From Patescibacteria group bacterium (lineage in GTDB: Bacteria > Patescibacteriota > Patescibacteriia > Magasanikbacterales > JBBTQS01), in assembly GCA_038065555.1 (NCBI GenBank), contig JBBTQS010000001.1, forward strand, positions 363,751 to 427,750: a stretch of DNA of 64,000 bases, in the 5' to 3' direction. The notes under the pieces were generated by a model. It did no database searches. It saw nothing but the letters and a program-made list of their open reading frames with translations, and was not told the origin of the DNA. Shown piece by piece: positions 35,435-41,975 of this stretch. Within the stretch, counting starts at the first letter, position 1, and each line of letters opens with the position of its first letter. Both the position numbers and the translations under genes were made by a program.

Positions 35435-35508
35435 TGGCAGGGGCGGTAGGAATCGAACCTACGCAGAAGGTTTTGGAGACCTTTGTACTACCATTATACG
35501 ACGCCCCC
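35435..35508 (-). tRNA. tRNA-Trp (anticodon CCA)
   Basis: The reverse complement folds as a cloverleaf GGGGGCG...GGTCTCCAAAACC...GGTTCGATTCC...CGCCCCTGCCA. The anticodon loop is CTCCAAA. 3' CCA is encoded. Confidence 0.85.
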
Positions 35509-35548
35509 AGTACTTGAGATCGACTCAAGTATACCAGAATACCACAAC

Positions 35549-35564
35549 GCCGGCAGATGCCGGC
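35549..35564 (-). terminator. GC hairpin downstream of rpmG
   Basis: GCCGGC-AGAT-GCCGGC just past the rpmG stop. Confidence 0.4.
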
Positions 35565-35572
35565 GAGCGGAA

Positions 35573-35728
35573 CTACTTTGTTTCCTTGTGTGGGGTGTGC
35601 TTCACGCAAAACTTGCAGTGCTTATTTGTAAGCATGCGAGCCTTGATGATCTTCTTGTTCTTGTGGGTGTCATGCGTCACGCGGCTGCATGCGCTGCACT
35701 CAAGGTGAATCAAATTGTCTTGTGACAT
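35573..35728 (-). CDS. rpmG: 50S ribosomal protein L33
   Basis: 51-aa ORF below the ORF-track size cutoff. MSQDNLIHLECSACSRVTHDTHKNKKIIKARMLTNKHCKFCVKHTPHKETK carries the CxxC...CxxC zinc ribbon and the Lys-rich L33 pattern. It sits inside the tRNA cluster. Confidence 0.8.
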   Translation of the reverse strand: MSQDNLIHLECSACSRVTHDTHKNKKIIKARMLTNKHCKFCVKHTPHKETK

Positions 35729-35763
35729 ATGTCAGTAATTAACTGGTCTTTCAATACTCTCGG

Positions 35764-35836
35764 AGCCATCTCCGGGGTTCGAACCCGGGACCTACGGTTT
35801 ACAAAACCGTTGCTCTACCAGCTGAGCTAAGATGGC
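35764..35836 (-). tRNA. tRNA-Thr (anticodon UGU)
   Basis: The reverse complement reads GCCATCTTAGCTCAGCTGGTAGAGCAACGGTTTTGTAAACCGTAGGTCCCGGGTTCGAACCCCGGAGATGGCT. Anticodon loop TTTGTAA. CCA is not encoded. Confidence 0.85.
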
Positions 35837-35840
35837 GCTG

Positions 35841-35922
35841 TGGGCAGGGGGGGATTCGAACCCACGAAGGCGTAGCCAGCAGATTTACAGTCTGCCCCGG
35901 TTGACCACTTCGGTACCTGCCC
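35841..35922 (-). tRNA. tRNA-Tyr (anticodon GUA), long variable arm
   Basis: The reverse complement reads GGGCAGGTACCGAAGTGGTCAACCGGGGCAGACTGTAAATCTGC...GGGTTCGAATCCCCCCCTGCCCA. Anticodon loop CTGTAAA. Confidence 0.8.
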
Positions 35923-36003: not shown

Positions 36004-36039
36004 TCACCCCACCACCGACGTCTGTCAGTGATGGGGTGT
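36004..36039 (-). terminator. Rho-independent terminator of the S1-S2 small-gene pair
   Basis: TCACCCCA-(20 nt)-TGGGGTGT followed by TTTTTTAAGG on the minus strand, 30 nt past the S2 stop. Confidence 0.6.
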
Positions 36040-36069: not shown

Positions 36070-36366
36070 TCAGTCGCCCGATCGCTTCATACGATCGAAC
36101 GAGTCTGGGTCGTTGTTCCAGGCCTCGAGTGTCTCCTCGAAGGCCCACTGCGTATTGGACCGAAGCGTCGCGAGGTCTCCCTCACAGACGAACCAGTACA
36201 ATCGCCTCTTCGTATGCGGCCCGCCGCCCTCATAGTCCGGCGTGGTGCTGCTCAACGCCAGTGTCATGATATCCCGCATCTTGCCGGGGAAATCTTTGCG
36301 TTGGAGGTGGAGCACCCGAGGTGGGCACTCCTCGGAGCTGCCAGCTGGTCTTGCTTCGAGATACAT
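36070..36366 (-). CDS. Small hypothetical protein S2 (~98 aa), paralog of S1
   Basis: Start trimmed to the ATG at 36366 (MYLEARPAGSSEECPP...). AGGAGG RBS 6 nt upstream. Shares MYL-RP-SS-CP...DFP...YW-VC...WN-P-SF with the adjacent gene. Confidence 0.65.
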   Translation of the reverse strand: MYLEARPAGSSEECPPRVLHLQRKDFPGKMRDIMTLALSSTTPDYEGGGPHTKRRLYWFVCEGDLATLRSNTQWAFEETLEAWNNDPDSFDRMKRSGD

Positions 36367-36368
36367 GG

Positions 36369-36662
36369 TCAGCCTCCTGTCGCCTTCTTGAACGACTCGG
36401 GCTTCGCGTTCCAGCGCTTGAGCTGGGAACGAAGCGCTCGCTCCGTGCAGTCCCAGACGCGTCGCGGCTCGTAGTCGCACACGTACCAGTACATCTGGTC
36501 GCTGGGGCTGGCATCTGGATCCGAGTCGGGACTCGAGGAACTCCCCATGACCTCCTGGATCAGCCCCTCGAGATCGTCATTCGGGAAATCCGACGATTCG
36601 AGAACGATGACCATCGCAGGGCAGTCCGCGGAGCTGTTGGGCGGTCGATTATCGAGATACAT
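36369..36662 (-). CDS. Small hypothetical protein S1 (~97 aa), paralog of S2
   Basis: Start trimmed to the ATG at 36662 (MYLDNRPPNSSADCPAMV...). GAGGAG RBS 6 nt upstream. Acidic, Ser-rich linker. Confidence 0.65.
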   Translation of the reverse strand: MYLDNRPPNSSADCPAMVIVLESSDFPNDDLEGLIQEVMGSSSSPDSDPDASPSDQMYWYVCDYEPRRVWDCTERALRSQLKRWNAKPESFKKATGG

Positions 36663-36794
36663 GAGATGCTCCTCATTTGAACAGAACGAATTCCACATCA
36701 CTCGGGACCCCGAGCTGCGGAAAACAAATATGTATACCACATTTTTAGGCTTTTGTCAAGATGTGCATTGAAAAACAGAAAAATTACAAAAGAA

Positions 36795-36822
36795 AACACC
36801 CCACTCTCTCGAATGGGGTGTT
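36795..36822 (-). terminator. Terminator hairpin ACACCCCA...TGGGGTGT downstream of P2
   Basis: 8-bp stem, 10-nt loop, followed on the minus strand by TTTTCTTTTGTAATTTTTCTGTTTTTC. Confidence 0.6.
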
Positions 36823-36903
36823 CTGTTAGTCGTGCGACGGCAATCCGCCACATGGACGCTGGAGCGTCCGCCATCGAAGTCCGCTCATTGGATACTCCTC
36901 CTG

Positions 36904-37656
36904 TTAGACGGTGAAGGGATGAATGATGGGAAGCTCTTGCGTTCGCAGCGGCTGGTACATCCGATCCTTGCGCGACGCAGGGCTCTCGGATTGCACGTAG
37001 ATTGCGTTCGGGTACACTCGTTCGAGCGTTGCGCCCTCGAACGCATATGCTGCGACCTGTCGTTGCGCCGCCTCACGCGTTCCGCCAGGGAACAGGATGT
37101 CAGGGAACGCTCGCAGGTGTTGATCTTCTTGATGCACGTGCAGTGCTTGTGCTGACTCACTCGCCCACCGCACTGCGTGCGCGTGAGTCACGTGAAGTGC
37201 CGCACGAGATTCGATCGAACTCCACGTCGCAACATCCCAGTTCTCAGGAATCTGTTTGCGTCCCTCCTCGATCATCAGCTCACAGGCTGTTGTACTCTCA
37301 CTCTGATCACAGCTCCAGCCCCACGTGCGAACCGGCTCACAATCAGGGAGCACCACCAGCATCTGTGCATCGACATGATCACGAATGCGCTGAAGCAACG
37401 ATTGCATCTGTCCGTACTTGCGACTGCGCAGGAAATACGTTTCGAACAGATCGAGTCGCAGTTCCTCTTTGTCCTTGTACGTTCCCAGGCAGGAGAATGC
37501 GATGAACTGCAGCGGTTGGTTCGCATGCAATGCTGCGAGCACTCGCGCAGGCGCGTAGAATGATTCTTGCTCACAGGCCTCGAACAGTTCGAGCACTCGT
37601 TGTGCACTCGTACTGAGCGCACGCCTGAGCTGTCGTTCTTCCTTTGTTGATGCCAC
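36904..37656 (-). CDS. Hypothetical protein P2 (250 aa), paralog of P1
   Basis: Shares PLQFIAFSC, LLQRIRDHVDAQMLVVLPDCEP and a C-terminal RMYQPL block with the upstream gene. No known motif recognised. Confidence 0.6.
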   Translation of the reverse strand: MASTKEERQLRRALSTSAQRVLELFEACEQESFYAPARVLAALHANQPLQFIAFSCLGTYKDKEELRLDLFETYFLRSRKYGQMQSLLQRIRDHVDAQMLVVLPDCEPVRTWGWSCDQSESTTACELMIEEGRKQIPENWDVATWSSIESRAALHVTHAHAVRWASESAQALHVHQEDQHLRAFPDILFPGGTREAAQRQVAAYAFEGATLERVYPNAIYVQSESPASRKDRMYQPLRTQELPIIHPFTV

Positions 37657-37734
37657 GTGCCACCTCCTCGGTGCGAGATCAGCTGTGAAGCGTCCTGACC
37701 TTCAGGACGCTCGTGCAGCTGACCGCTGCACACG

Positions 37735-38592
37735 TCATTGATATCCTCCGTTATCAACGCCGTAGAAATACACAATCGGCAACTGCGCATCATACTGCTG
37801 TGCAATCAGCGGTTGATACATCGTTGATCGCAGGACTGACGGATTCTCATTCTGGATGAGAATCATTGGCATGAGCGACTTGTACATCCACCGCGCCTGC
37901 AACGCATACTCTACGAATTTGCGACGAATCCAATCGCGCAAGACTGTCTCGTCAGGCGCCGTGAGTCCATCGAAATATTTGCCCACAGTGAACTGTGTTC
38001 GCAGTGCACGCAACTCCCATTCGCGATCAGTCTCACTCCCCACTCCCCGCGCCAACTCCTGATCGAACTCTTGCTCGAACGTCTGTGCACGCAACTGATT
38101 CTGTTCCTGCTCCCAGACATACCAACTCACCACACGCGCACGGAGCGCTGGATATGTTGCTGCAACCCATGCTTCCAACGCATCGCGATACTGTGCCCAT
38201 CGCGCTGCGAACTGCTCGACTACCGACGCGCGATCAGCCTGGGACAACTCCTGGAACTGCTGCCGATAGATGTAGTACGGATCTGTATTACCAATCATGA
38301 TCACGACTTCGACTGGATACACCTCGCGTAGCGCCTGCACAATCCTCGTGAGCCGCGGCAAATCTGCTTCCAGATTGTTGCCCGCAGTATCAGTGCGCAC
38401 GTACATCCACGGCGTGTCGCTGTACATCTCTCGCGCAGTGATCGTTGAACACGTGAACGTCACGAACCGCAGTGGTACACCCGCTTCCACAGCACGCTCT
38501 ACTGCCTGTTGAACCGCGGCGCGATACGTATCCTCTGCGGCGTCATACACCGCAAGTTTTTCCATGATGTCTCGAATGATTTGTTTTTGCAT
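37735..38592 (-). CDS. Hypothetical protein P1 (285 aa), paralog of P2
   Basis: Start trimmed to the ATG at 38592 (MQKQIIRDIMEKL...). The longer ORF-track start would read through the upstream terminator tail. Carries PLRFVTFTC, VVIMIGNTDPYYIY and TMYQPL. Confidence 0.6.
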   Translation of the reverse strand: MQKQIIRDIMEKLAVYDAAEDTYRAAVQQAVERAVEAGVPLRFVTFTCSTITAREMYSDTPWMYVRTDTAGNNLEADLPRLTRIVQALREVYPVEVVIMIGNTDPYYIYRQQFQELSQADRASVVEQFAARWAQYRDALEAWVAATYPALRARVVSWYVWEQEQNQLRAQTFEQEFDQELARGVGSETDREWELRALRTQFTVGKYFDGLTAPDETVLRDWIRRKFVEYALQARWMYKSLMPMILIQNENPSVLRSTMYQPLIAQQYDAQLPIVYFYGVDNGGYQ

Positions 38593-38614
38593 ACTGTAAT
38601 GAAGAGAAAAAAGA

Positions 38615-38642
38615 AACACCCCTCTCTTTCGAGAGGGGTGTT
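38615..38642 (-). terminator. Perfect 12-bp hairpin AACACCCCTCTC-TTTC-GAGAGGGGTGTT upstream of P1
   Basis: Followed on the minus strand by TTTCTTTTTTCTCTTC. Near-identical in style to the hairpins at 36795-36822 and 36004-36039. It could terminate an unannotated transcript from the 38643-38787 gap. Confidence 0.5.
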
Positions 38643-38787
38643 GGCGAAATGATGGTCGGAAATCCTACGCATCAAAGCACACCTCTGTCGAAAGAGAAGC
38701 GTGTGGATGCGGAGCATGAATTGCAAGTGTAGCGCGCAAGATTTGATTCATACATACCCACCGTAGCGAATCTCAAAAAATCTGTCA

Positions 38788-38816
38788 AATGAATGAGGTC
38801 CTGTCACAGCTGAGCT
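38788..38816 (-). terminator. Terminator hairpin after the 766-aa gene
   Basis: GTCCTGT-(15 nt)-ACAGGAC 20 nt past the stop, followed by a T-rich stretch (CATTTGACAGATTTTTTGAG). Confidence 0.5.
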
Positions 38817-38835
38817 GCAACAGGACCTTCGTTGT

Positions 38836-41136
38836 TCACGCCTTCTGCGCTGGGGCAGACTGAGCGTGTGCCGTGAGTCGCGCAGCGACCTCCTCTTGGA
38901 GGAGGCGTCGCTGCGTCTCATCAGGTGCCACCGTAGCGATCTGATCGAGTGCTGCCTTGAAGATTCTCGCAACTTCACGCTGACGATGCAGACACTGTTC
39001 GAGCTCCTGAATGCGTTGCGCTCGTATCTGCTGTTCCTCGATTCGATACCGAAGCTCCGTTTCCTCCTTCTCGTAATCTGCCCGAACTTGCACGAGCTCT
39101 GCTTGGATCGACTCCTCCGAAATAACATAGTACGAGGGCGTCACCGGGGGCTCCTCGTCTTGCACGTCATCTTCCGGAACTCGTTCGCGCCTGACGCATC
39201 TGAATAGGCTCGGCGCTTCGCTGTCGATACCCTCTCGCTCTCCTGGAATGTAGTATCGATCGAGATTCAGCAACCCCTCCTCGTCCACCAGCTTGCGCAG
39301 GAAGTATTCCACGAAGTCCTCCGAACCATCCCAGCCGAGAACAGCACGAACTTCATCGATGTGCCCAGTGCTCAATGCGAAGTAGTCTCTGTCCTTTGCA
39401 TTCTCTGTCGCACGTACGAGCACCTCCTCGAGTTGATCGAGAGCCACACCCTCCTTACGTAGACGACCGATGATCACAGCAGCATGACTCGCGCCAGCGT
39501 TCTGATCTGTTTCCATTGCGAGGAACGCGTACCATCGGGACGTATCATTGAACTTCAGTCGACGCTGATTACTCTCTTCAGAGTACCTCGTCGACGTCAC
39601 ATCTGCGAGACCGTCTTTGATGAGAAGCGACGCGAATTCTGCTGCTGTGACATGGAGCATGAGCCCCGCATTGAACCACGCCGCATCTTCGATCTCCTGG
39701 ACCTTGAAACCGCTGCGCCCATAGAACTCCTTGACGACATCGGTGTAGGCCGCCCGACACGCATCGATCTGCGCCTGCGTGAGATTGTCTGCTTTGGATG
39801 TTTGAGAACCAGTTGCCATGCTGACCTCCGTTGTGCCGCCCGTCGATGCGCAGCGGCAATGCAGCGTCCTGATTTCGCCATCGCTTGGCGATCGCTCAGG
39901 ACGAACTTCGAGCAGCGACCCAGCAGGTGTCACTGCGAACTGTTCGAGGAACCGTTCCACGAACAGTTGATGCTGACGGTGTTGAGACCAGTTGAGCGCA
40001 GTGCGCAGCACACCTGCTACACTCGCCGTGACCTCGAACCACCCAGACTCATCAGTGGGAATGGTGCGCAATGCAGTTGTGAGGGCTTCACGGAGTGTGA
40101 GATCCTCCGAGACTTCCTCGACAGCACTGATACACCTCTCTTCGCCCCAGATTTTGCCCAGTCGCATTGCGATACGGTCTGCAGTGCGGTCATGAGCAAC
40201 CAACCGGAGCTCGCGCTTGTCGCTCTTCTTGTCAACAGTCGCGTGCGTGAGATCCTCGAGATGCGCATCGCGCACCAACGCATCAATCACATCCGCTGCA
40301 GTATTGGGTTTGCCGTGCCCAGTATTAGCTGCGAACCACGGCACACGCTTCACCCGTTCGAGCGTGAACGAACTTGCGCCGTAGAAAGCACTCACGAGCG
40401 CCTCGTGTGCGGCTTGCGCGGTTCCTGGTGACAACCCCTGGGAGACAGTCGGGGCACGCACCACAGATACTTCGCTCTTCCGAAATCGTCCACCGCATTC
40501 CTTGGGAAGGCGATCGAGATCGAACGCGAACTCACCTGGGATCGTGCTTCCCTTCGCTCGTGGTGGTTTGTCGATACGCAGTGCGCTATGCTTGCGCGCG
40601 AGTGCAATCGCAGCGAGCGCAAGACCCTTGTCCGAGACAACTTCAATCGCGCGAGCAAGAGTGAACTCTTTCTCTGACACTGCACCTACCAGCATCTTCA
40701 GGTTGACCACAGTGATATCCGCGTCAGCAGATTCCGTGACTGTTCTTTTATGCGCCTGAAGAGGCATCGGTACAGATTCGGTGCTGCGCCCGTGCAGCTT
40801 GTTCGCGAACCTGTATGACACGTGCTCGTCACCTGCAGAGAGTCCTCCACGAACCAGATGCAGTAATCCAGCTTCGTGGTAGTGAGCCAGTCGCTGACCC
40901 CAACTCTTTGCCGTGCCGTCTGAAAGGATTGGCGCAATTGATGCACCTGAAAAGACCAATCCACTGGACAGTTCTCGGGAGAGCCGCAGGAAATGCGGTT
41001 CATTGCTGAGATCTTCATTCACTGTAGCCTCCAGAAACGGTGATTGTTGTGGTTGCGAGTACCCACTCGCTTGCGCGATCCTACCAATCTTTGCATGACG
41101 GGTCAATGTGTCAGCGTTGATCGTCGAACCCACCAT
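38836..41136 (-). CDS. Large hypothetical protein (766 aa) with three internal repeats and a C-terminal coiled-coil; possibly phage antirepressor/BRO-N-like
   Basis: Repeated blocks: EKEFTLARAIEVVSDKGLALAAIALA, then AFYGASSFTLERVKRVPWFAANTG, then EFYGRSGFKVQEIEDAAWFNAGLM. The C-terminal approximately 100 aa are heptad-rich (ELVQVRADYEKEETELRYRIEEQQIRAQRIQELEQCLHRQ). GC looks higher than the core genes. Confidence 0.6.
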   Translation of the reverse strand: MVGSTINADTLTRHAKIGRIAQASGYSQPQQSPFLEATVNEDLSNEPHFLRLSRELSSGLVFSGASIAPILSDGTAKSWGQRLAHYHEAGLLHLVRGGLSAGDEHVSYRFANKLHGRSTESVPMPLQAHKRTVTESADADITVVNLKMLVGAVSEKEFTLARAIEVVSDKGLALAAIALARKHSALRIDKPPRAKGSTIPGEFAFDLDRLPKECGGRFRKSEVSVVRAPTVSQGLSPGTAQAAHEALVSAFYGASSFTLERVKRVPWFAANTGHGKPNTAADVIDALVRDAHLEDLTHATVDKKSDKRELRLVAHDRTADRIAMRLGKIWGEERCISAVEEVSEDLTLREALTTALRTIPTDESGWFEVTASVAGVLRTALNWSQHRQHQLFVERFLEQFAVTPAGSLLEVRPERSPSDGEIRTLHCRCASTGGTTEVSMATGSQTSKADNLTQAQIDACRAAYTDVVKEFYGRSGFKVQEIEDAAWFNAGLMLHVTAAEFASLLIKDGLADVTSTRYSEESNQRRLKFNDTSRWYAFLAMETDQNAGASHAAVIIGRLRKEGVALDQLEEVLVRATENAKDRDYFALSTGHIDEVRAVLGWDGSEDFVEYFLRKLVDEEGLLNLDRYYIPGEREGIDSEAPSLFRCVRRERVPEDDVQDEEPPVTPSYYVISEESIQAELVQVRADYEKEETELRYRIEEQQIRAQRIQELEQCLHRQREVARIFKAALDQIATVAPDETQRRLLQEEVAARLTAHAQSAPAQKA

Positions 41137-41771
41137 CCGAACAACGTCACACCAACTCCCGCTGCCAGTAATCCGCCCACAGACGTCGCAACTAATGCAG
41201 CAGGACTACGCAACACCACTAACGCCGACCCTCCAAAGCAAAAGAACGCGGTCGGCAACACACCTACTGCGTTTTGGATAACAAAAAATTTCAAAAATCC
41301 GATCGGAGTGAGTCCTGCGGCGTAAGCTACGACCTCAGGCAATGACGCGAGACACACTCGTGCTACAACAAACCCTTTCGTTGTTGTAAGCACCGCTCGC
41401 ACCTTCGCAACCACACCCATTTCATTCTTCACCATGCGCTCAACAGAGGCTCGGCCAAGTCTGCGACTGATCAGAAATGCAATAGCGCTCCCCAGCGCAT
41501 CGCCAAGAAGCAACAATACGAATCCAACATTGAATCCAAATAGCGCACCAGCAAGTGGATAGAGTGGCCCACCTGAGATTGGCGCGAATACAAGAGTACT
41601 CGCCTTCGCAAGCACAAATACTGCAGGCGCCCAGATGCCAGCACGAATGATCCACGCCTGTAACGTTGCATACTCTACGAACCACACAACACCAAAAATC
41701 ACCAACAGCATGAGCACTACGCCCACGCTATTTTTGAACCCATCTTTGTACGCTTGTAGTCCGACACGCAT
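41103..41771 (-). CDS. DedA/TVP38 (VTT-domain) family membrane protein
   Basis: The ORF-track N-terminus (ADVAQLVERIHGKDEVTSSILV) is simply the translation of the tRNA-Thr gene, so I trimmed to the ATG at 41771. The remainder is polytopic with DedA-like G-rich helices (FAPISGGPLYPLAGALFGF). Confidence 0.6.
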   Translation of the reverse strand: MRVGLQAYKDGFKNSVGVVLMLLVIFGVVWFVEYATLQAWIIRAGIWAPAVFVLAKASTLVFAPISGGPLYPLAGALFGFNVGFVLLLLGDALGSAIAFLISRRLGRASVERMVKNEMGVVAKVRAVLTTTKGFVVARVCLASLPEVVAYAAGLTPIGFLKFFVIQNAVGVLPTAFFCFGGSALVVLRSPAALVATSVGGLLAAGVGVTLFGWWVRRSTLTH

Positions 41772-41804
41772 ATATTCGATGATACCAGTTGTGTCGTAAA
41801 CAAA

Positions 41805-41831
41805 GAACAGTTCCGCAATGCGGAACTGTTC
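41805..41831 (-). terminator. Terminator of tRNA-Thr(GGU)
   Basis: GAACAGTTCCGC-AAT-GCGGAACTGTTC is a perfect 12-bp stem followed by TTTGTTT on the minus strand. Confidence 0.6.
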
Positions 41832-41839
41832 TTTTGAGC

Positions 41840-41915
41840 TGGAGCCGACGACCAGGATTGAACTGGTGACCTCATCCTTACCATGGATGCGCTCTACCAA
41901 CTGAGCTACGTCGGC
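41840..41915 (-). tRNA. tRNA-Thr (anticodon GGU), CCA encoded
   Basis: The reverse complement reads GCCGACGTAGCTCAGTTGGTAGAGCGCATCCATGGTAAGGATGAGGTCACCAGTTCAATCCTGGTCGTCGGCTCCA. Anticodon loop ATGGTAA. Confidence 0.85.
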
Positions 41916-41975
41916 GTGGTGGGACTTTTCTAATGCGCCTACACCATACCAGAGAGTTTCTCCGAACACAAGTCC

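What the first reader, a model, noticed from the sequence alone, without database searches (positions are those of the whole stretch)
36904..38642. Tandem paralogs P1/P2 (285/250 aa) bracketed by two near-identical ACACCCC...GGGGTGT hairpins
P1 and P2 share PL(R/Q)F(V/I)(T/A)F(T/S)C, an L-x-RI...V-V-(I/L)...P block, and a C-terminal (R/T)MYQPL motif. These blocks are unknown to me. The pair is flanked by two hairpins of the same design: AACACCCCTCTC-TTTC-GAGAGGGGTGTT at 38615-38642 and ACACCCCA-CTCTCTCGAA-TGGGGTGT at 36795-36822. A third of the same kind lies at 36004-36039 after S2. Look-alike hairpins bracketing a two-gene module may simply reflect island-specific terminators. They could also be short direct repeats left by cassette insertion. 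The upstream hairpin would then terminate something in the 38643-38787 gap, possibly a small RNA.
Basis: seen in the sequence. Interest (0 to 1): 0.65.

Follow-up and report, generated by a model that had tools for sequence, protein, structure and literature searches.

The report
Histidine-controlled operon of unknown synthetase-like enzymes
The two look-alike genes are an uncharacterised enzyme pair, shaped like the core of a tRNA-charging enzyme and found only in ultra-small (CPR) bacteria; the hairpin in front of them is the stop signal of a switch that appears to turn the pair on when histidine-charged tRNA runs short.

Summary
P1 (38592..37735, minus) and P2 (37656..36904) are true paralogs, and the three hairpins exist.

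The cassette-boundary reading is wrong. Hairpin 38642..38615 is the terminator of a leader-peptide attenuator: a promoter-like site, a 28-codon ORF (38751..38665, MNQILRATLAIHAPHPHASLSTEVCFDA) and alternative 1:2, 2:3 and 3:4 pairings, ending 22 nt before the P1 ATG. About 30 distant Patescibacteria carry the same design. There the His-His(-His) codons sit in a stand-alone leader or in the C-terminal tail of a HisR (YerC-type histidine repressor) gene.

Hairpin 36822..36795 ends the operon.

In Microgenomates-type genomes the paralog pair lies between a tRNA-His gene and hisS.

Both proteins model confidently as a TyrRS / cyclodipeptide-synthase / PvcA-like fold. They lack the HIGH and KMSKS motifs, carry an invariant Cys, and match no Pfam, NCBIfam or PDB sequence.

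The regulation is well supported. The enzymatic function is unknown, but it is tied to histidine and tRNA-His supply.

The parts
38760..38788 (-). Promoter-like site: TTGACA (38788..38783), 17-nt spacer, TACGGT (38765..38760). The leader ATG lies about 9 nt after the -10 box, so the leader ORF may be leaderless or nearly so.
   Evidence: Read from the sequence. The same TTGACA-17-TAnnnT arrangement precedes the stand-alone leader ORFs in L005, L009, L047, L056 and others. The -10 box is weak, so this is a consensus match only.
38665..38751 (-). Leader ORF of 28 codons, MNQILRATLAIHAPHPHASLSTEVCFDA*. Its three His codons (CAT, CAT, CAC) lie at 38718..38701.
   Evidence: The reading frame is conserved in L005 (MKQFVLAIHVPHHTPSLSKEVCLDA*). 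Analogous short ORFs or HisR C-terminal tails with HH, HHH or HxH are found in about 30 loci.
38668..38711 (-). Leader hairpin, regions 1:2. Its 5' arm overlaps the His codons. Its 3' arm (region 2, core 38688..38678 ACAGAGGTGTG) can instead pair with the 5' arm of the terminator (regions 2:3, the antiterminator).
   Evidence: The hairpin folds at -18.2 kcal/mol, z -4.1. The whole leader has z -5.5 with competing structures. With a ribosome modelled as stalled at the His codons and the RNA truncated before region 4, 9 of 12 nt of the terminator 5' arm pair with region 2. Cross-locus covariation supports the 2:3 pairing with p = 2e-5.
38605..38642 (-). Attenuator terminator, regions 3:4: AACACCCCTCTC-GAAA-GAGAGGGGTGTT plus the tail TCTTTTTTCT. 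The stem ends 22 nt before the P1 ATG. This is hairpin 1 of the finding.
   Evidence: -22.5 kcal/mol. Hairpins with the same core, CCCTTCTC-loop-GAGAAGGG, sit immediately upstream of P1 in distant lineages. No P1-specific promoter fits between the hairpin and the ATG.
37735..38592 (-). P1, 285 aa. It has a class-I aaRS-like (TyrRS / CDPS / PvcA-like) Rossmann fold. Invariant motifs are FTCST, GNTD(P)Y and QNE-P--LR--MYQP. There is no Shine-Dalgarno sequence.
37657..37734 (-). P1-P2 intercistronic region with a long stable hairpin, then GAGGAGG, then the GTG start of P2.
   Evidence: Fold of -41.1 kcal/mol, z -4.1. Its function was not examined.
36904..37656 (-). P2, 250 aa, a paralog of P1 with the same fold. 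Invariant motifs are FSC, D-EP--TWGW, QSE, K--(M)YQ and L-I-HPF.
36826..36902 (-). Shine-Dalgarno AGGAGG (36902..36897) and a conserved micro-ORF at 36888..36826, MSGLRWRTLQRPCGGLPSHD*. The family consensus is R-x-(C)-G-G-(L/M/I)-(P)-x-H.
   Evidence: Present in 33 of 36 non-redundant P1-P2 loci that have sequence downstream of P2. GG-x3-H is invariant. Synonymous third-position variation (TGT/TGC, all four GGN, all four CCN) indicates selection at the protein level. The His codon is CAC in 32 of 33. No Pfam or NCBIfam match.
36795..36822 (-). Operon terminator, hairpin 2 of the finding: AACACCCCATTC-GAGA-GAGTGGGGTGTT plus a T-run. It starts 3 nt after the micro-ORF stop codon.
   Evidence: -20 kcal/mol. 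It is a near-copy of hairpin 1, as is the corresponding hairpin in L005. Terminators at this position in other lineages are unrelated in sequence.
36005..36038 (-). Hairpin 3 of the finding. It terminates the separate S1-S2 operon (S1 36671..36369, S2 36369..36070; promoter TTGACA-17-TATACA at 36759..36731) and is not part of the conserved module.
   Evidence: S1 and S2 homologs occur only in the window's close relatives.

Best explanation
The region 38788..36795 (minus strand) is one histidine-responsive operon: promoter, His-codon leader ORF, attenuator, P1, P2, micro-ORF, terminator.

Proposed mechanism (classical ribosome-mediated attenuation, inferred from anatomy and comparison, not measured):
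- When His-tRNA(His) is plentiful, the ribosome translates the 28-codon leader to its stop codon and covers region 2. Regions 3:4 (hairpin 38642..38615 plus the T-run) then form, and transcription stops 22 nt before P1.
- When His-tRNA(His) is scarce, the ribosome stalls on the His codons in region 1. Region 2 is left free to pair with region 3, the terminator cannot form, and P1-P2-micro-ORF are transcribed.
- In many relatives a HisR (YerC-type, histidine-binding) repressor gene is fused to or sits next to the leader. This adds control by free histidine.

P1 and P2 are paralogous, probably heterodimeric proteins with the catalytic-domain fold of TyrRS / cyclodipeptide synthases / PvcA-IsnA. 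They lack the ATP motifs and share an invariant Cys at the position of the HIGH loop. In other CPR lineages they are co-operonic with tRNA-His and hisS.

My inference is that they act on histidine, tRNA-His or His-tRNA(His) to sustain the His-tRNA supply under limitation. The micro-ORF peptide would be a third subunit, scaffold or substrate. The chemistry is unknown.
For: Shown by tools:
1. Paralogy and fold.
2. The pair is conserved. A P2 homolog follows P1 in 34 of 51 non-redundant loci, and a larger P1-like paralog precedes P1 in 10 others.
3. Leader ORFs or HisR tails with HH, HHH or HxH end 19-43 nt before a terminator that itself ends 5-32 nt before the first gene.
4. With the ribosome modelled at the His codons, the MFE structure loses the terminator in 7 loci and regains it with the ribosome at the stop codon. 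In the other loci, 6-11 nt of region 3 pair with region 2 in the co-transcriptional (truncated) fold. In the window dG(2:3) is -10.7 against dG(3:4) -21.7 kcal/mol.
5. Regions 2 and 3 covary across 20 lineages. Cognate duplexes average -13.8 kcal/mol against -9.3 for non-cognate pairs, permutation p = 2e-5.
6. The window leader is strongly structured, z -5.5, with competing folds.
7. The adjacent regulators belong to TIGR02531 (YerC/YecD) and their best PDB match is 3g1c. This family is HisR, with L-histidine shown as corepressor in vitro (PMC9413887). A gene of this family is upstream in 23 of 51 loci.
8. The palindrome TGTRTTA-N6-TAAYACA occurs 9 times against 0.85 expected, 8 of them at hisR, leader or hisS promoters.
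9. A tRNA-His gene abuts the upstream paralog in 5 loci, and hisS follows P1 in 9. In L040 a single operator + NHH leader + attenuator precedes hisS-P1-P2-micro-ORF.
10. Leader His codons are 73% CAT, against 49% in P1 and P2 and 3% in the micro-ORF.
Against: - There are no expression data, so attenuation is inferred from sequence alone.
- The window's leader has His-x-x-His-x-His rather than a tandem run, and its -10 box (TACGGT) is weak.
- In the window and several other loci the terminator is so stable that the MFE structure keeps it even with the ribosome modelled as stalled. The argument there rests on kinetics, by analogy with E. coli trpL (from my own knowledge).
- A second leader architecture (L006, L008, L022, L034, L040) shows no clear 2:3 pairing in my test.
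- The window has no hisR, hisS or tRNA-His within its 64 kb. The histidine link for this particular locus therefore rests on the leader and on homology.
- Heterodimer formation, substrate and catalysis are not shown for P1 and P2.
- Induction by low His-tRNA argues against a His-tRNA-consuming reaction of the CDPS type. That leaves the fold-based analogy and the regulatory logic in some tension.
Confidence: 0.75

Rival explanations
1. The look-alike hairpins are direct repeats or boundary scars of a mobile two-gene cassette, or island-specific terminators with no regulatory role.
For: Hairpins 1 and 2 are near-identical. The 36-41 kb region is richer in G+C than its flanks (0.55-0.57 against about 0.50) and lies between tRNA genes.
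Against: The hairpin-P1-P2 arrangement is syntenic in L005 at 75% protein identity. The upstream hairpin, with the same CCCTTCTC/GAGAAGGG core, is conserved in front of P1 across CPR classes where the downstream terminator is unrelated. No integrase or transposase lies at this locus in the window. The upstream hairpin forms part of a covarying three-way pairing scheme.
Confidence: 0.03
2. Hairpin 1 is just the terminator of the upstream 766-aa gene or of an independent small RNA. P1 would then be transcribed from its own promoter or by unregulated read-through, and the His codons in the gap would be chance.
For: The 766-aa gene's own hairpin (38828..38796) lacks a good T-run, so some transcription may reach hairpin 1. 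The scan also finds a weak promoter-like site at 38691..38662.
Against: Only 22 nt, mostly T-tail, separate the hairpin from the P1 ATG, which leaves no room for a promoter. The 766-aa gene is absent in L005, yet the leader and hairpin are conserved there. HH, HHH or HxH occurs in the equivalent ORF of about 30 loci, where chance would give roughly 1% per locus (my estimate from about 2% His content). In many loci the leader is the tail of HisR.
Confidence: 0.06
3. The leader is not a sensor of His-tRNA charging. It would instead be a ligand-sensing nascent arrest peptide, or an RNA or protein-binding switch (a riboswitch or a HisR-bound RNA), and the His codons or residues would be conserved for another reason, for example Q34 modification status of the GUN-anticodon tRNAs.
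For: The sequence after the His codons is also semi-conserved. Asn codons often flank the His codons. tRNA-Asp and tRNA-Tyr genes lie near the module in some loci. CAT is preferred over CAC in the leaders.
Against: No Rfam family matches. The conserved downstream residues are encoded by the stems of regions 1 and 2, which explains their conservation at the RNA level. Adjacency of HisR, hisS and tRNA-His points specifically to histidine. The tRNA-Tyr neighbourhood is lineage synteny.
Confidence: 0.08
4. P1/P2 are peptide-modifying (RiPP-like or scaffold-peptide) enzymes whose substrate is the micro-ORF peptide. They might act at or near its invariant His, possibly using aminoacyl-tRNA as CDPS and PEARL enzymes do. 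The product, not the histidine supply, would be the point of the operon.
For: A tightly conserved 14-25 aa ORF with a strong SD lies directly after P2 in 33 of 36 loci, under protein-level selection. The enzyme folds are related to aa-tRNA-using CDPS. His is the last residue in several lineages.
Against: Microgenomates-type loci have the paralog pair with tRNA-His and hisS but no micro-ORF within 400 nt downstream of P1, so the core function does not need it. There are no transporter, protease or immunity genes in the neighbourhoods. Induction under His-tRNA shortage is odd for a pathway that consumes His. The peptide matches no known precursor family.
Confidence: 0.18
5. P1/P2 are a divergent cyclodipeptide synthase that makes a His-containing diketopiperazine from His-tRNA.
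Against: No hit to any Pfam model, CDPS included. The nucleophile position carries Cys, not the CDPS Ser. An obligate paralog pair is not a CDPS feature. The regulation switches the genes on when the presumed substrate is scarce. TyrRS and PvcA score as well or better.
Confidence: 0.08

Closest known systems
Leader-peptide transcription attenuators of amino-acid operons (E. coli/Salmonella hisL and trpL; His-leader attenuators of Firmicutes lacking HisR, PMC9413887)
   Same: A short ORF with clustered regulatory His codons, a 1:2 / 2:3 / 3:4 alternative pairing scheme, and an intrinsic terminator directly before the first structural gene. Two or three regulatory codons, as in trpL. Co-occurrence with a HisR repressor in the same regulon.
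   Different: No Rfam family, His_leader included, reaches its gathering score on any leader, and none appears at E <= 1 on the window leader. The host phylum (Patescibacteria) is not covered in PMC9413887. In many loci the leader peptide is the C-terminal tail of the HisR protein itself. The controlled genes are not his biosynthesis or transport genes but an unknown enzyme pair (plus hisS in L040). The terminator core is conserved across classes.
Class Ic aminoacyl-tRNA synthetase catalytic domain (TyrRS/TrpRS)
   Different: There are no HIGH or KMSKS motifs and no anticodon-binding domain. Sequence identity is 5-13%. Canonical class II HisRS is present in the same operons, so the pair does not replace HisRS.
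Cyclodipeptide synthases (CDPS)
   Different: Cys instead of Ser. No match to any Pfam model. Occurs as a two-paralog pair. Regulated for induction when His-tRNA is low.
PvcA / IsnA / Dit1 isonitrile synthases (PF05141)
   Different: No PF05141 match. No partner Fe/2-oxoglutarate dioxygenase gene (IsnB/PvcB) in any neighbourhood that was read.
HisR (YerC/YecD, TrpR-family histidine repressor) regulons
   Same: In 23 of 51 loci the module is preceded by a TIGR02531 protein. 20-bp palindromes of the TrpR/HisR type lie at the promoters.
   Different: The window itself has no hisR within 64 kb. The regulon content is new (P1, P2, micro-ORF, hisS). Fusion of the repressor ORF with the attenuator leader is not described in PMC9413887.

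Membership tests
Ribosome-mediated (leader-peptide) transcription attenuator | Short translated ORF with clustered codons for the sensed amino acid, upstream of the regulated genes | tested here: met
   The window leader 38751..38665 has 3 His in 7 codons. HH, HHH or HxH occurs in the equivalent ORF or HisR tail of about 30 loci.
Ribosome-mediated (leader-peptide) transcription attenuator | Intrinsic terminator between the leader and the first structural gene | tested here: met
   Hairpin 38642..38615 (-22.5 kcal/mol) plus a T-run, 22 nt before the P1 ATG. The same holds in the relatives.
Ribosome-mediated (leader-peptide) transcription attenuator | Mutually exclusive antiterminator (2:3) whose formation depends on where the ribosome sits | tested here: met
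   Ribosome-masking folds. Cross-locus covariation of regions 2 and 3, p = 2e-5. Unclear for the L006/L008/L022/L034 architecture.
Ribosome-mediated (leader-peptide) transcription attenuator | Read-through increases when the cognate charged tRNA is limiting | not testable with these tools
   Needs Term-seq or reporter assays.
Rfam His_leader and other curated cis-regulatory RNAs | Match to the covariance model | tested here: not met
   There is no hit on the window leader at E <= 1. No family reaches its gathering score on 25 related loci or on the whole window.
Class I aminoacyl-tRNA synthetase (TyrRS/TrpRS) | Rossmann-type catalytic fold | tested here: met
Class I aminoacyl-tRNA synthetase (TyrRS/TrpRS) | HIGH and KMSKS ATP-binding signatures; anticodon-binding domain | tested here: not met
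   The alignments show FTCST / FSCLG and QNEKPS-LR / QSE-P--RK at the places where I expect these motifs (placement from my own knowledge). The proteins end about 30 residues after the last strand. No aaRS Pfam or NCBIfam hit.
Cyclodipeptide synthase | CDPS sequence family (Pfam model) with catalytic Ser and the Tyr/Glu/Tyr set | tested here: not met
   No Pfam hit at E <= 1. Invariant Cys, not Ser, after strand 1.
PvcA/IsnA/Dit1 isonitrile synthase | PF05141 domain and an adjacent IsnB/PvcB-type dioxygenase | tested here: not met
   No PF05141 hit. No such neighbour in the 9 annotated neighbourhoods. Fold similarity only.
HisR (YerC/YecD) regulon member | HisR-family regulator and its palindromic operator at the promoter | tested here: inconclusive
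   Met in relatives: TIGR02531 above its cut-off, a regulator upstream in 23 of 51 loci, and operator-like palindromes. Not met in the window: no hisR and no such palindrome at this promoter.
RiPP / scaffold-peptide biosynthetic cluster | Short precursor gene next to modifying enzymes, belonging to a recognised precursor or enzyme class | tested here: inconclusive
   A conserved micro-ORF lies next to the enzymes. There is no known precursor family and no protease or exporter. The micro-ORF is absent from Microgenomates-type loci.

The most novel reading that the evidence does not exclude
P1/P2, with the GG-x3-H micropeptide or with the N-terminally extended paralog in Microgenomates, form a previously unknown ATP-motif-less, Cys-dependent, TyrRS-like heterodimeric enzyme. 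It would give CPR bacteria, which generally lack the his pathway, an alternative way to keep tRNA-His charged. Possible routes are salvage or generation of histidine from a scavenged precursor, or a tRNA-His-dependent reaction that works together with HisRS. It would be a new branch of aaRS-like enzymology and the core of the CPR histidine regulon.
Probability: 0.3. Interest if true: 0.92.

Novelty: new variant of a known kind. Interest (0 to 1): 0.8.

Why it matters
CPR/Patescibacteria make up a large share of bacterial diversity, and most of their conserved proteins have no assigned function. This work gives a specific physiological context, histidine and His-tRNA(His) limitation, to a phylum-wide family with no Pfam model. 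Four independent genomic signals support that context: the His leader attenuator, the HisR repressor and its operator, the abutting tRNA-His gene, and the co-operonic hisS.

The proteins are a new offshoot of the class-I aaRS / CDPS / isonitrile-synthase fold group. They work as a paralog pair and come with a conserved micropeptide.

The result also extends leader-peptide attenuation and the HisR regulon to CPR, and shows a repressor ORF whose own C-terminal tail serves as the attenuator leader.

All of this can be tested directly with recombinant proteins and reporter constructs, without cultivating the organism.

Tried and rejected
- **Known families for P1, P2, S1, S2 and the 766-aa ORF.** Pfam, NCBIfam and PADLOC gave nothing meaningful. 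A PDB sequence search with the P1 profile gave nothing. Ten distant relatives, including the long paralogs, have no Pfam domain.
- **Riboswitch, T-box or sRNA in the gap.** No Rfam family matches.
- **Another leader frame.** My first reading, MYESNLARYTCNSC..., was rejected because only the MNQIL... frame is conserved in L005.
- **Replacement of HisRS.** Rejected, because canonical class II hisS lies in the same operons.
- **A Thg1-like enzyme adding G-1 to tRNA-His.** Made unlikely, because all five adjacent tRNA-His genes encode G-1 and C73.
- **A queuosine link** (tRNA-His, -Asp and -Tyr neighbours; a Vut_1 gene in L004). Left as a weak idea. The tRNA-Tyr and tRNA-Thr neighbours are lineage synteny.
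- **Column-wise covariation counting of the 2:3 helix on the MAFFT alignment.** Abandoned, because the pairing register shifts by one column between lineages. A cross-locus duplex permutation test replaced it.
- **The afdb50 fold library.** Not available.
- **A resemblance of the micro-peptide CGG(L)PxH to the ECGLH tail of PAPS reductases or to the class-I HIGH loop.** Recalled from memory only and not tested.
- **The second attenuator architecture** (L006, L008, L022, L034, L040). I could not derive a convincing antiterminator for it.
Full report
**1. Observation**

All genes between 36.0 and 41.1 kb are on the minus strand. P1 is 38592..37735 (285 aa). A later ATG at 38565 gives the 276-aa form called in public assemblies. 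P2 is 37656..36904 (250 aa, GTG start behind GAGGAGG).

Pairwise BLASTP sees only the C-terminal 60 residues. Family profiles align over 198 columns (hhalign 97.1%, E 6.7e-11), and each family HMM finds the other family (E about 1e-10). P1 and P2 are genuine, old paralogs.

The hairpin pattern CACCCC...GGGGTG occurs three times in the window against 0.05 expected. All three are perfect 12-15 bp stems followed by T-runs on the minus strand. Other strong terminator-like hairpins in the window have different stems.

**2. What P1 and P2 are**

Neither protein matches Pfam, NCBIfam, PADLOC or any PDB sequence.

P1 has 98 homologs in 5.8 billion clusters. All that carry a name are "hypothetical", and almost all names point to Patescibacteria (Magasanik-, Nomura-, Doudna-, Sung-, Amesbacteria, Paceibacterota). 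P2 has 11 homologs, on the same contigs. An exhaustive profile search of 1.84 billion representatives finds only 115 relatives. Ten of the distant ones have no Pfam domain.

The P1 family has invariant FTCST, GNTD-Y, R, Y, W, K-F--Y--Q and QNE-P--LR--MYQP. The P2 family has the matching FSC, D-EP--TWGW, Q-A-YA--G and QSE----K--YQ.

The HIGH and KMSKS signatures are absent, and there is no anticodon-binding domain. One Cys, immediately after the first strand, is invariant in P1, in P2 and in the long paralogs.

**3. Upstream hairpin: an attenuator terminator**

Hairpin 38642..38615 plus its T-tail ends 22 nt before the P1 ATG, so P1 has to be transcribed through it.

Upstream lie TTGACA-17-TACGGT (38788..38760) and a 28-codon ORF (38751..38665): MNQILRATLAIHAPHPHASLSTEVCFDA. 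In L005 (P1 75% identical) the gap is better conserved than the genes and keeps this frame: MKQFVLAIHVPHHTPSLSKEVCLDA.

I collected 29 loci from GTDB species genomes and 44 from metagenomes. Together with loci from contig look-ups and the window they reduce to 51 non-redundant loci.

Nearly every locus of the P1-P2 type with enough upstream sequence shows the same layout: a short ORF with HH, HHH or HxH, whose stop codon lies 19-43 nt before a terminator that ends 5-32 nt before P1. Examples:
- MKNIINANKIHHPSMPLDDKGLS
- MVNIYSANQIHHHSIPFSEKRLS
- MNRVISTNQVHHHSTSLGDRG
- MIANKTTLTRLHHHAEPSFKKRSV

The distance from the His codons to the T-run is 68-117 nt throughout.

Most terminators share the core CCCTTCTC-loop-GAGAAGGG, although the P1 proteins are only 40-50% identical.

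In the window the 5' arm of a first hairpin (38711..38668, -18.2 kcal/mol) overlaps the His codons. Its 3' arm resembles the 3' arm of the terminator and can pair with the terminator's 5' arm.

*Ribosome-masking folds.* With a ribosome modelled as stalled at the His codons (nucleotides blocked through +13), the MFE structure loses the terminator in 7 loci. It regains it when the ribosome is placed at the stop codon. In the other loci, the window included, the terminator is thermodynamically dominant. There, in the co-transcriptional (truncated) fold, 6-11 nt of region 3 are captured by region 2. In the window dG(2:3) is -10.7 and dG(3:4) is -21.7 kcal/mol. To my knowledge the same relation holds in E. 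coli trpL.

*Covariation.* Across 20 non-redundant leaders, cognate 2:3 duplexes average -13.8 kcal/mol against -9.3 for non-cognate combinations (permutation p = 2e-5; 7 cognates rank first). The loop-proximal bases of region 3 (CGTC, CGA, CGC, TGG, TAC, CCC) covary with the start of region 2.

The whole window leader is strongly structured (z -5.5) with competing folds. No Rfam family matches any leader.

Leader His codons are 73% CAT, against 49% in P1 and P2.

**4. Independent links to histidine**

(a) *HisR.* In 23 of 51 loci the gene directly upstream is a YerC/YecD TrpR-family protein: TIGR02531 above its cut-off, with best PDB match 3g1c. This family is HisR, the histidine repressor, with L-His shown to act as corepressor in vitro (PMC9413887). 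That paper does not cover CPR or hisS. In many of these loci the "leader peptide" is the C-terminal tail of HisR itself (...KLNVHHHTPPLLRKG*...RLHHHGSPPLGKGSN*).

(b) *Operator.* A 20-bp palindrome, TGTRTTA-N6-TAAYACA, occurs 9 times in the loci against 0.85 expected. Eight of these are at hisR, leader or hisS promoters.

(c) *tRNA-His and hisS.* In Microgenomates/WWE3-type loci the partner of P1 is a longer paralog (360-670 aa; motifs FQFTCPRINA, IGDTDEEDY, LQNEFP--LRTKM) placed upstream of P1.
- In 5 loci a tRNA-His(GUG) gene ends 1-3 nt before that paralog's ATG.
- In 9 loci canonical class II hisS follows P1.

(d) *L040.* One promoter with the palindrome, an MKSKTFSQRNHHTDDLR* leader and an attenuator precede hisS-P1-P2-micro-ORF.

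The pair therefore belongs to the histidine / His-tRNA regulon of CPR. It neither replaces HisRS nor adds G-1, which is genome-encoded.

**5. Downstream end**

It is present in 33 of 36 non-redundant P1-P2 loci, with consensus R-x-(C)-G-G-(L/M/I)-(P)-x-H and an invariant GG-x3-H. Synonymous variation indicates selection at the protein level. The His codon is CAC in 32 of 33. No family matches it. It was not found downstream of P1 in the Microgenomates-type loci.

Hairpin 36822..36795 starts 3 nt after its stop codon and terminates the operon.

Hairpins 1 and 2 are near-copies (30 of 36 nt, one compensatory flip). The same is true in L005, but not in other lineages. The resemblance is therefore a lineage-specific duplication or conversion, not a cassette scar.

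Hairpin 3 ends the S1-S2 operon. That operon has its own promoter (36759..36731) and exists only in this lineage.

**6. Mechanism and limits**

Shown:
- the anatomy and conservation of the operon;
- covariation of the switch;
- the folds of P1 and P2;
- the genomic links to HisR, tRNA-His and hisS.

Inferred:
- that His-tRNA shortage causes read-through;
- that P1 and P2 form a heterodimer;
- that the invariant Cys is catalytic;
- that the substrate is histidine, tRNA-His or His-tRNA(His).

The regulatory logic (on when His-tRNA is low) favours a role in supply or salvage, or a HisRS-assisting role, over a CDPS-like reaction that consumes His-tRNA. The micro-peptide may be a subunit, a scaffold or a substrate. 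The chemistry remains unknown.

The window contains no hisR, hisS or tRNA-His. For this locus the histidine link therefore rests on its own leader and on homology.

**7. Verdict**

What is there is a conserved, uncharacterised, histidine-regulated operon of CPR bacteria. It encodes a new TyrRS / CDPS / PvcA-like paralog pair and a micropeptide. The attenuator is a new member of a known class. The enzyme system is a new variant within a known fold group, with no described function.

Noticed in passing
window 36826-36888 (-), SD at 36897-36902: A conserved 20-codon micro-ORF, MSGLRWRTLQRPCGGLPSHD, follows P2. GG-x3-H is invariant in 33 of 36 related loci, and the His codon is almost always CAC. 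Gene callers instead call a probably spurious 58-aa ORF in another frame (36698..36874).
   Followed up: yes
window 36070-36671 (-); promoter 36731-36759: S1 and S2 are two tandem paralogous ORFs of about 100 aa (E about 1e-17 to each other) with their own TTGACA-17-TATACA promoter and terminator 36038..36005. They occur only in the window's close relatives. L001, which is nearly the same species, has one copy. No family match.
   Followed up: partly
window 38836-41136 (-): A 766-aa ORF with no family match and a coiled-coil-like C-terminus. It is called as 728 aa in the near-identical contigs L001-L003. In L005 only a remnant of its 3' end is left in the syntenic position. It looks like a variable insertion just upstream of the His leader. 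Its hairpin 38828..38796 lacks a proper T-run.
   Followed up: partly
window 37657-37734 (-): A very stable hairpin (-41 kcal/mol, z -4.1) fills the P1-P2 intercistronic gap, just before the P2 Shine-Dalgarno. It may be an mRNA processing or stability element, or a translational coupling element.
   Followed up: no
window 38593-38604 and equivalent positions in L005, L009, L013: P1 has no Shine-Dalgarno sequence in the window or in relatives, only a U/A-rich stretch after the terminator. P2 and the micro-ORF have strong GGAGG sites.
   Followed up: no
L027 3814-3887, L032 3703-3774, L073, L078 (tRNA-His), then the ATG of the long paralog: The start codon of the long P1-like paralog lies 1-3 nt after the 3' end of a tRNA-His gene that has no encoded CCA. 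The 5' end of the mRNA would then be made by tRNA 3' processing, giving a leaderless message co-transcribed with tRNA-His.
   Followed up: partly
L006, L008, L022, L029, L034, L040, L052 (positions): The candidate CPR HisR operator TGTRTTA-N6-TAAYACA overlaps the -10 region of the leader, hisR or hisS promoters. It resembles the proteobacterial HisR/TrpR-type motif reported in PMC9413887.
   Followed up: partly
L040 about 900-1470: A gene whose product resembles a REP-associated or IS200-type transposase (...WVVMPNHMHMLF...), flanked by tandem repeats of about 28 nt, is inserted between hisR and the hisS-P1-P2 operon. The assignment is from my own knowledge and was not tested.
   Followed up: no
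window 35435-35922 and 41840-41915 (-): A tRNA-Trp / Thr / Tyr cluster and a tRNA-Thr(GGU) gene bracket the 36-41 kb segment, which is richer in G+C (0.55-0.57 against about 0.50). The long mechanical ORF 41103..41969 runs across the tRNA-Thr gene, so its 5' part is probably not coding. In L005 the VTT-domain gene is shorter.
   Followed up: no
L010, L015, L018, L019, L022, L023, L026 (record titles): Several public MAGs that carry this CPR-type module are labelled Bacteroidetes, 'uncultured Gammaproteobacteria' or Methanosarcinales. These are probably mislabelled bins, since the module and its neighbours look patescibacterial.
   Followed up: no
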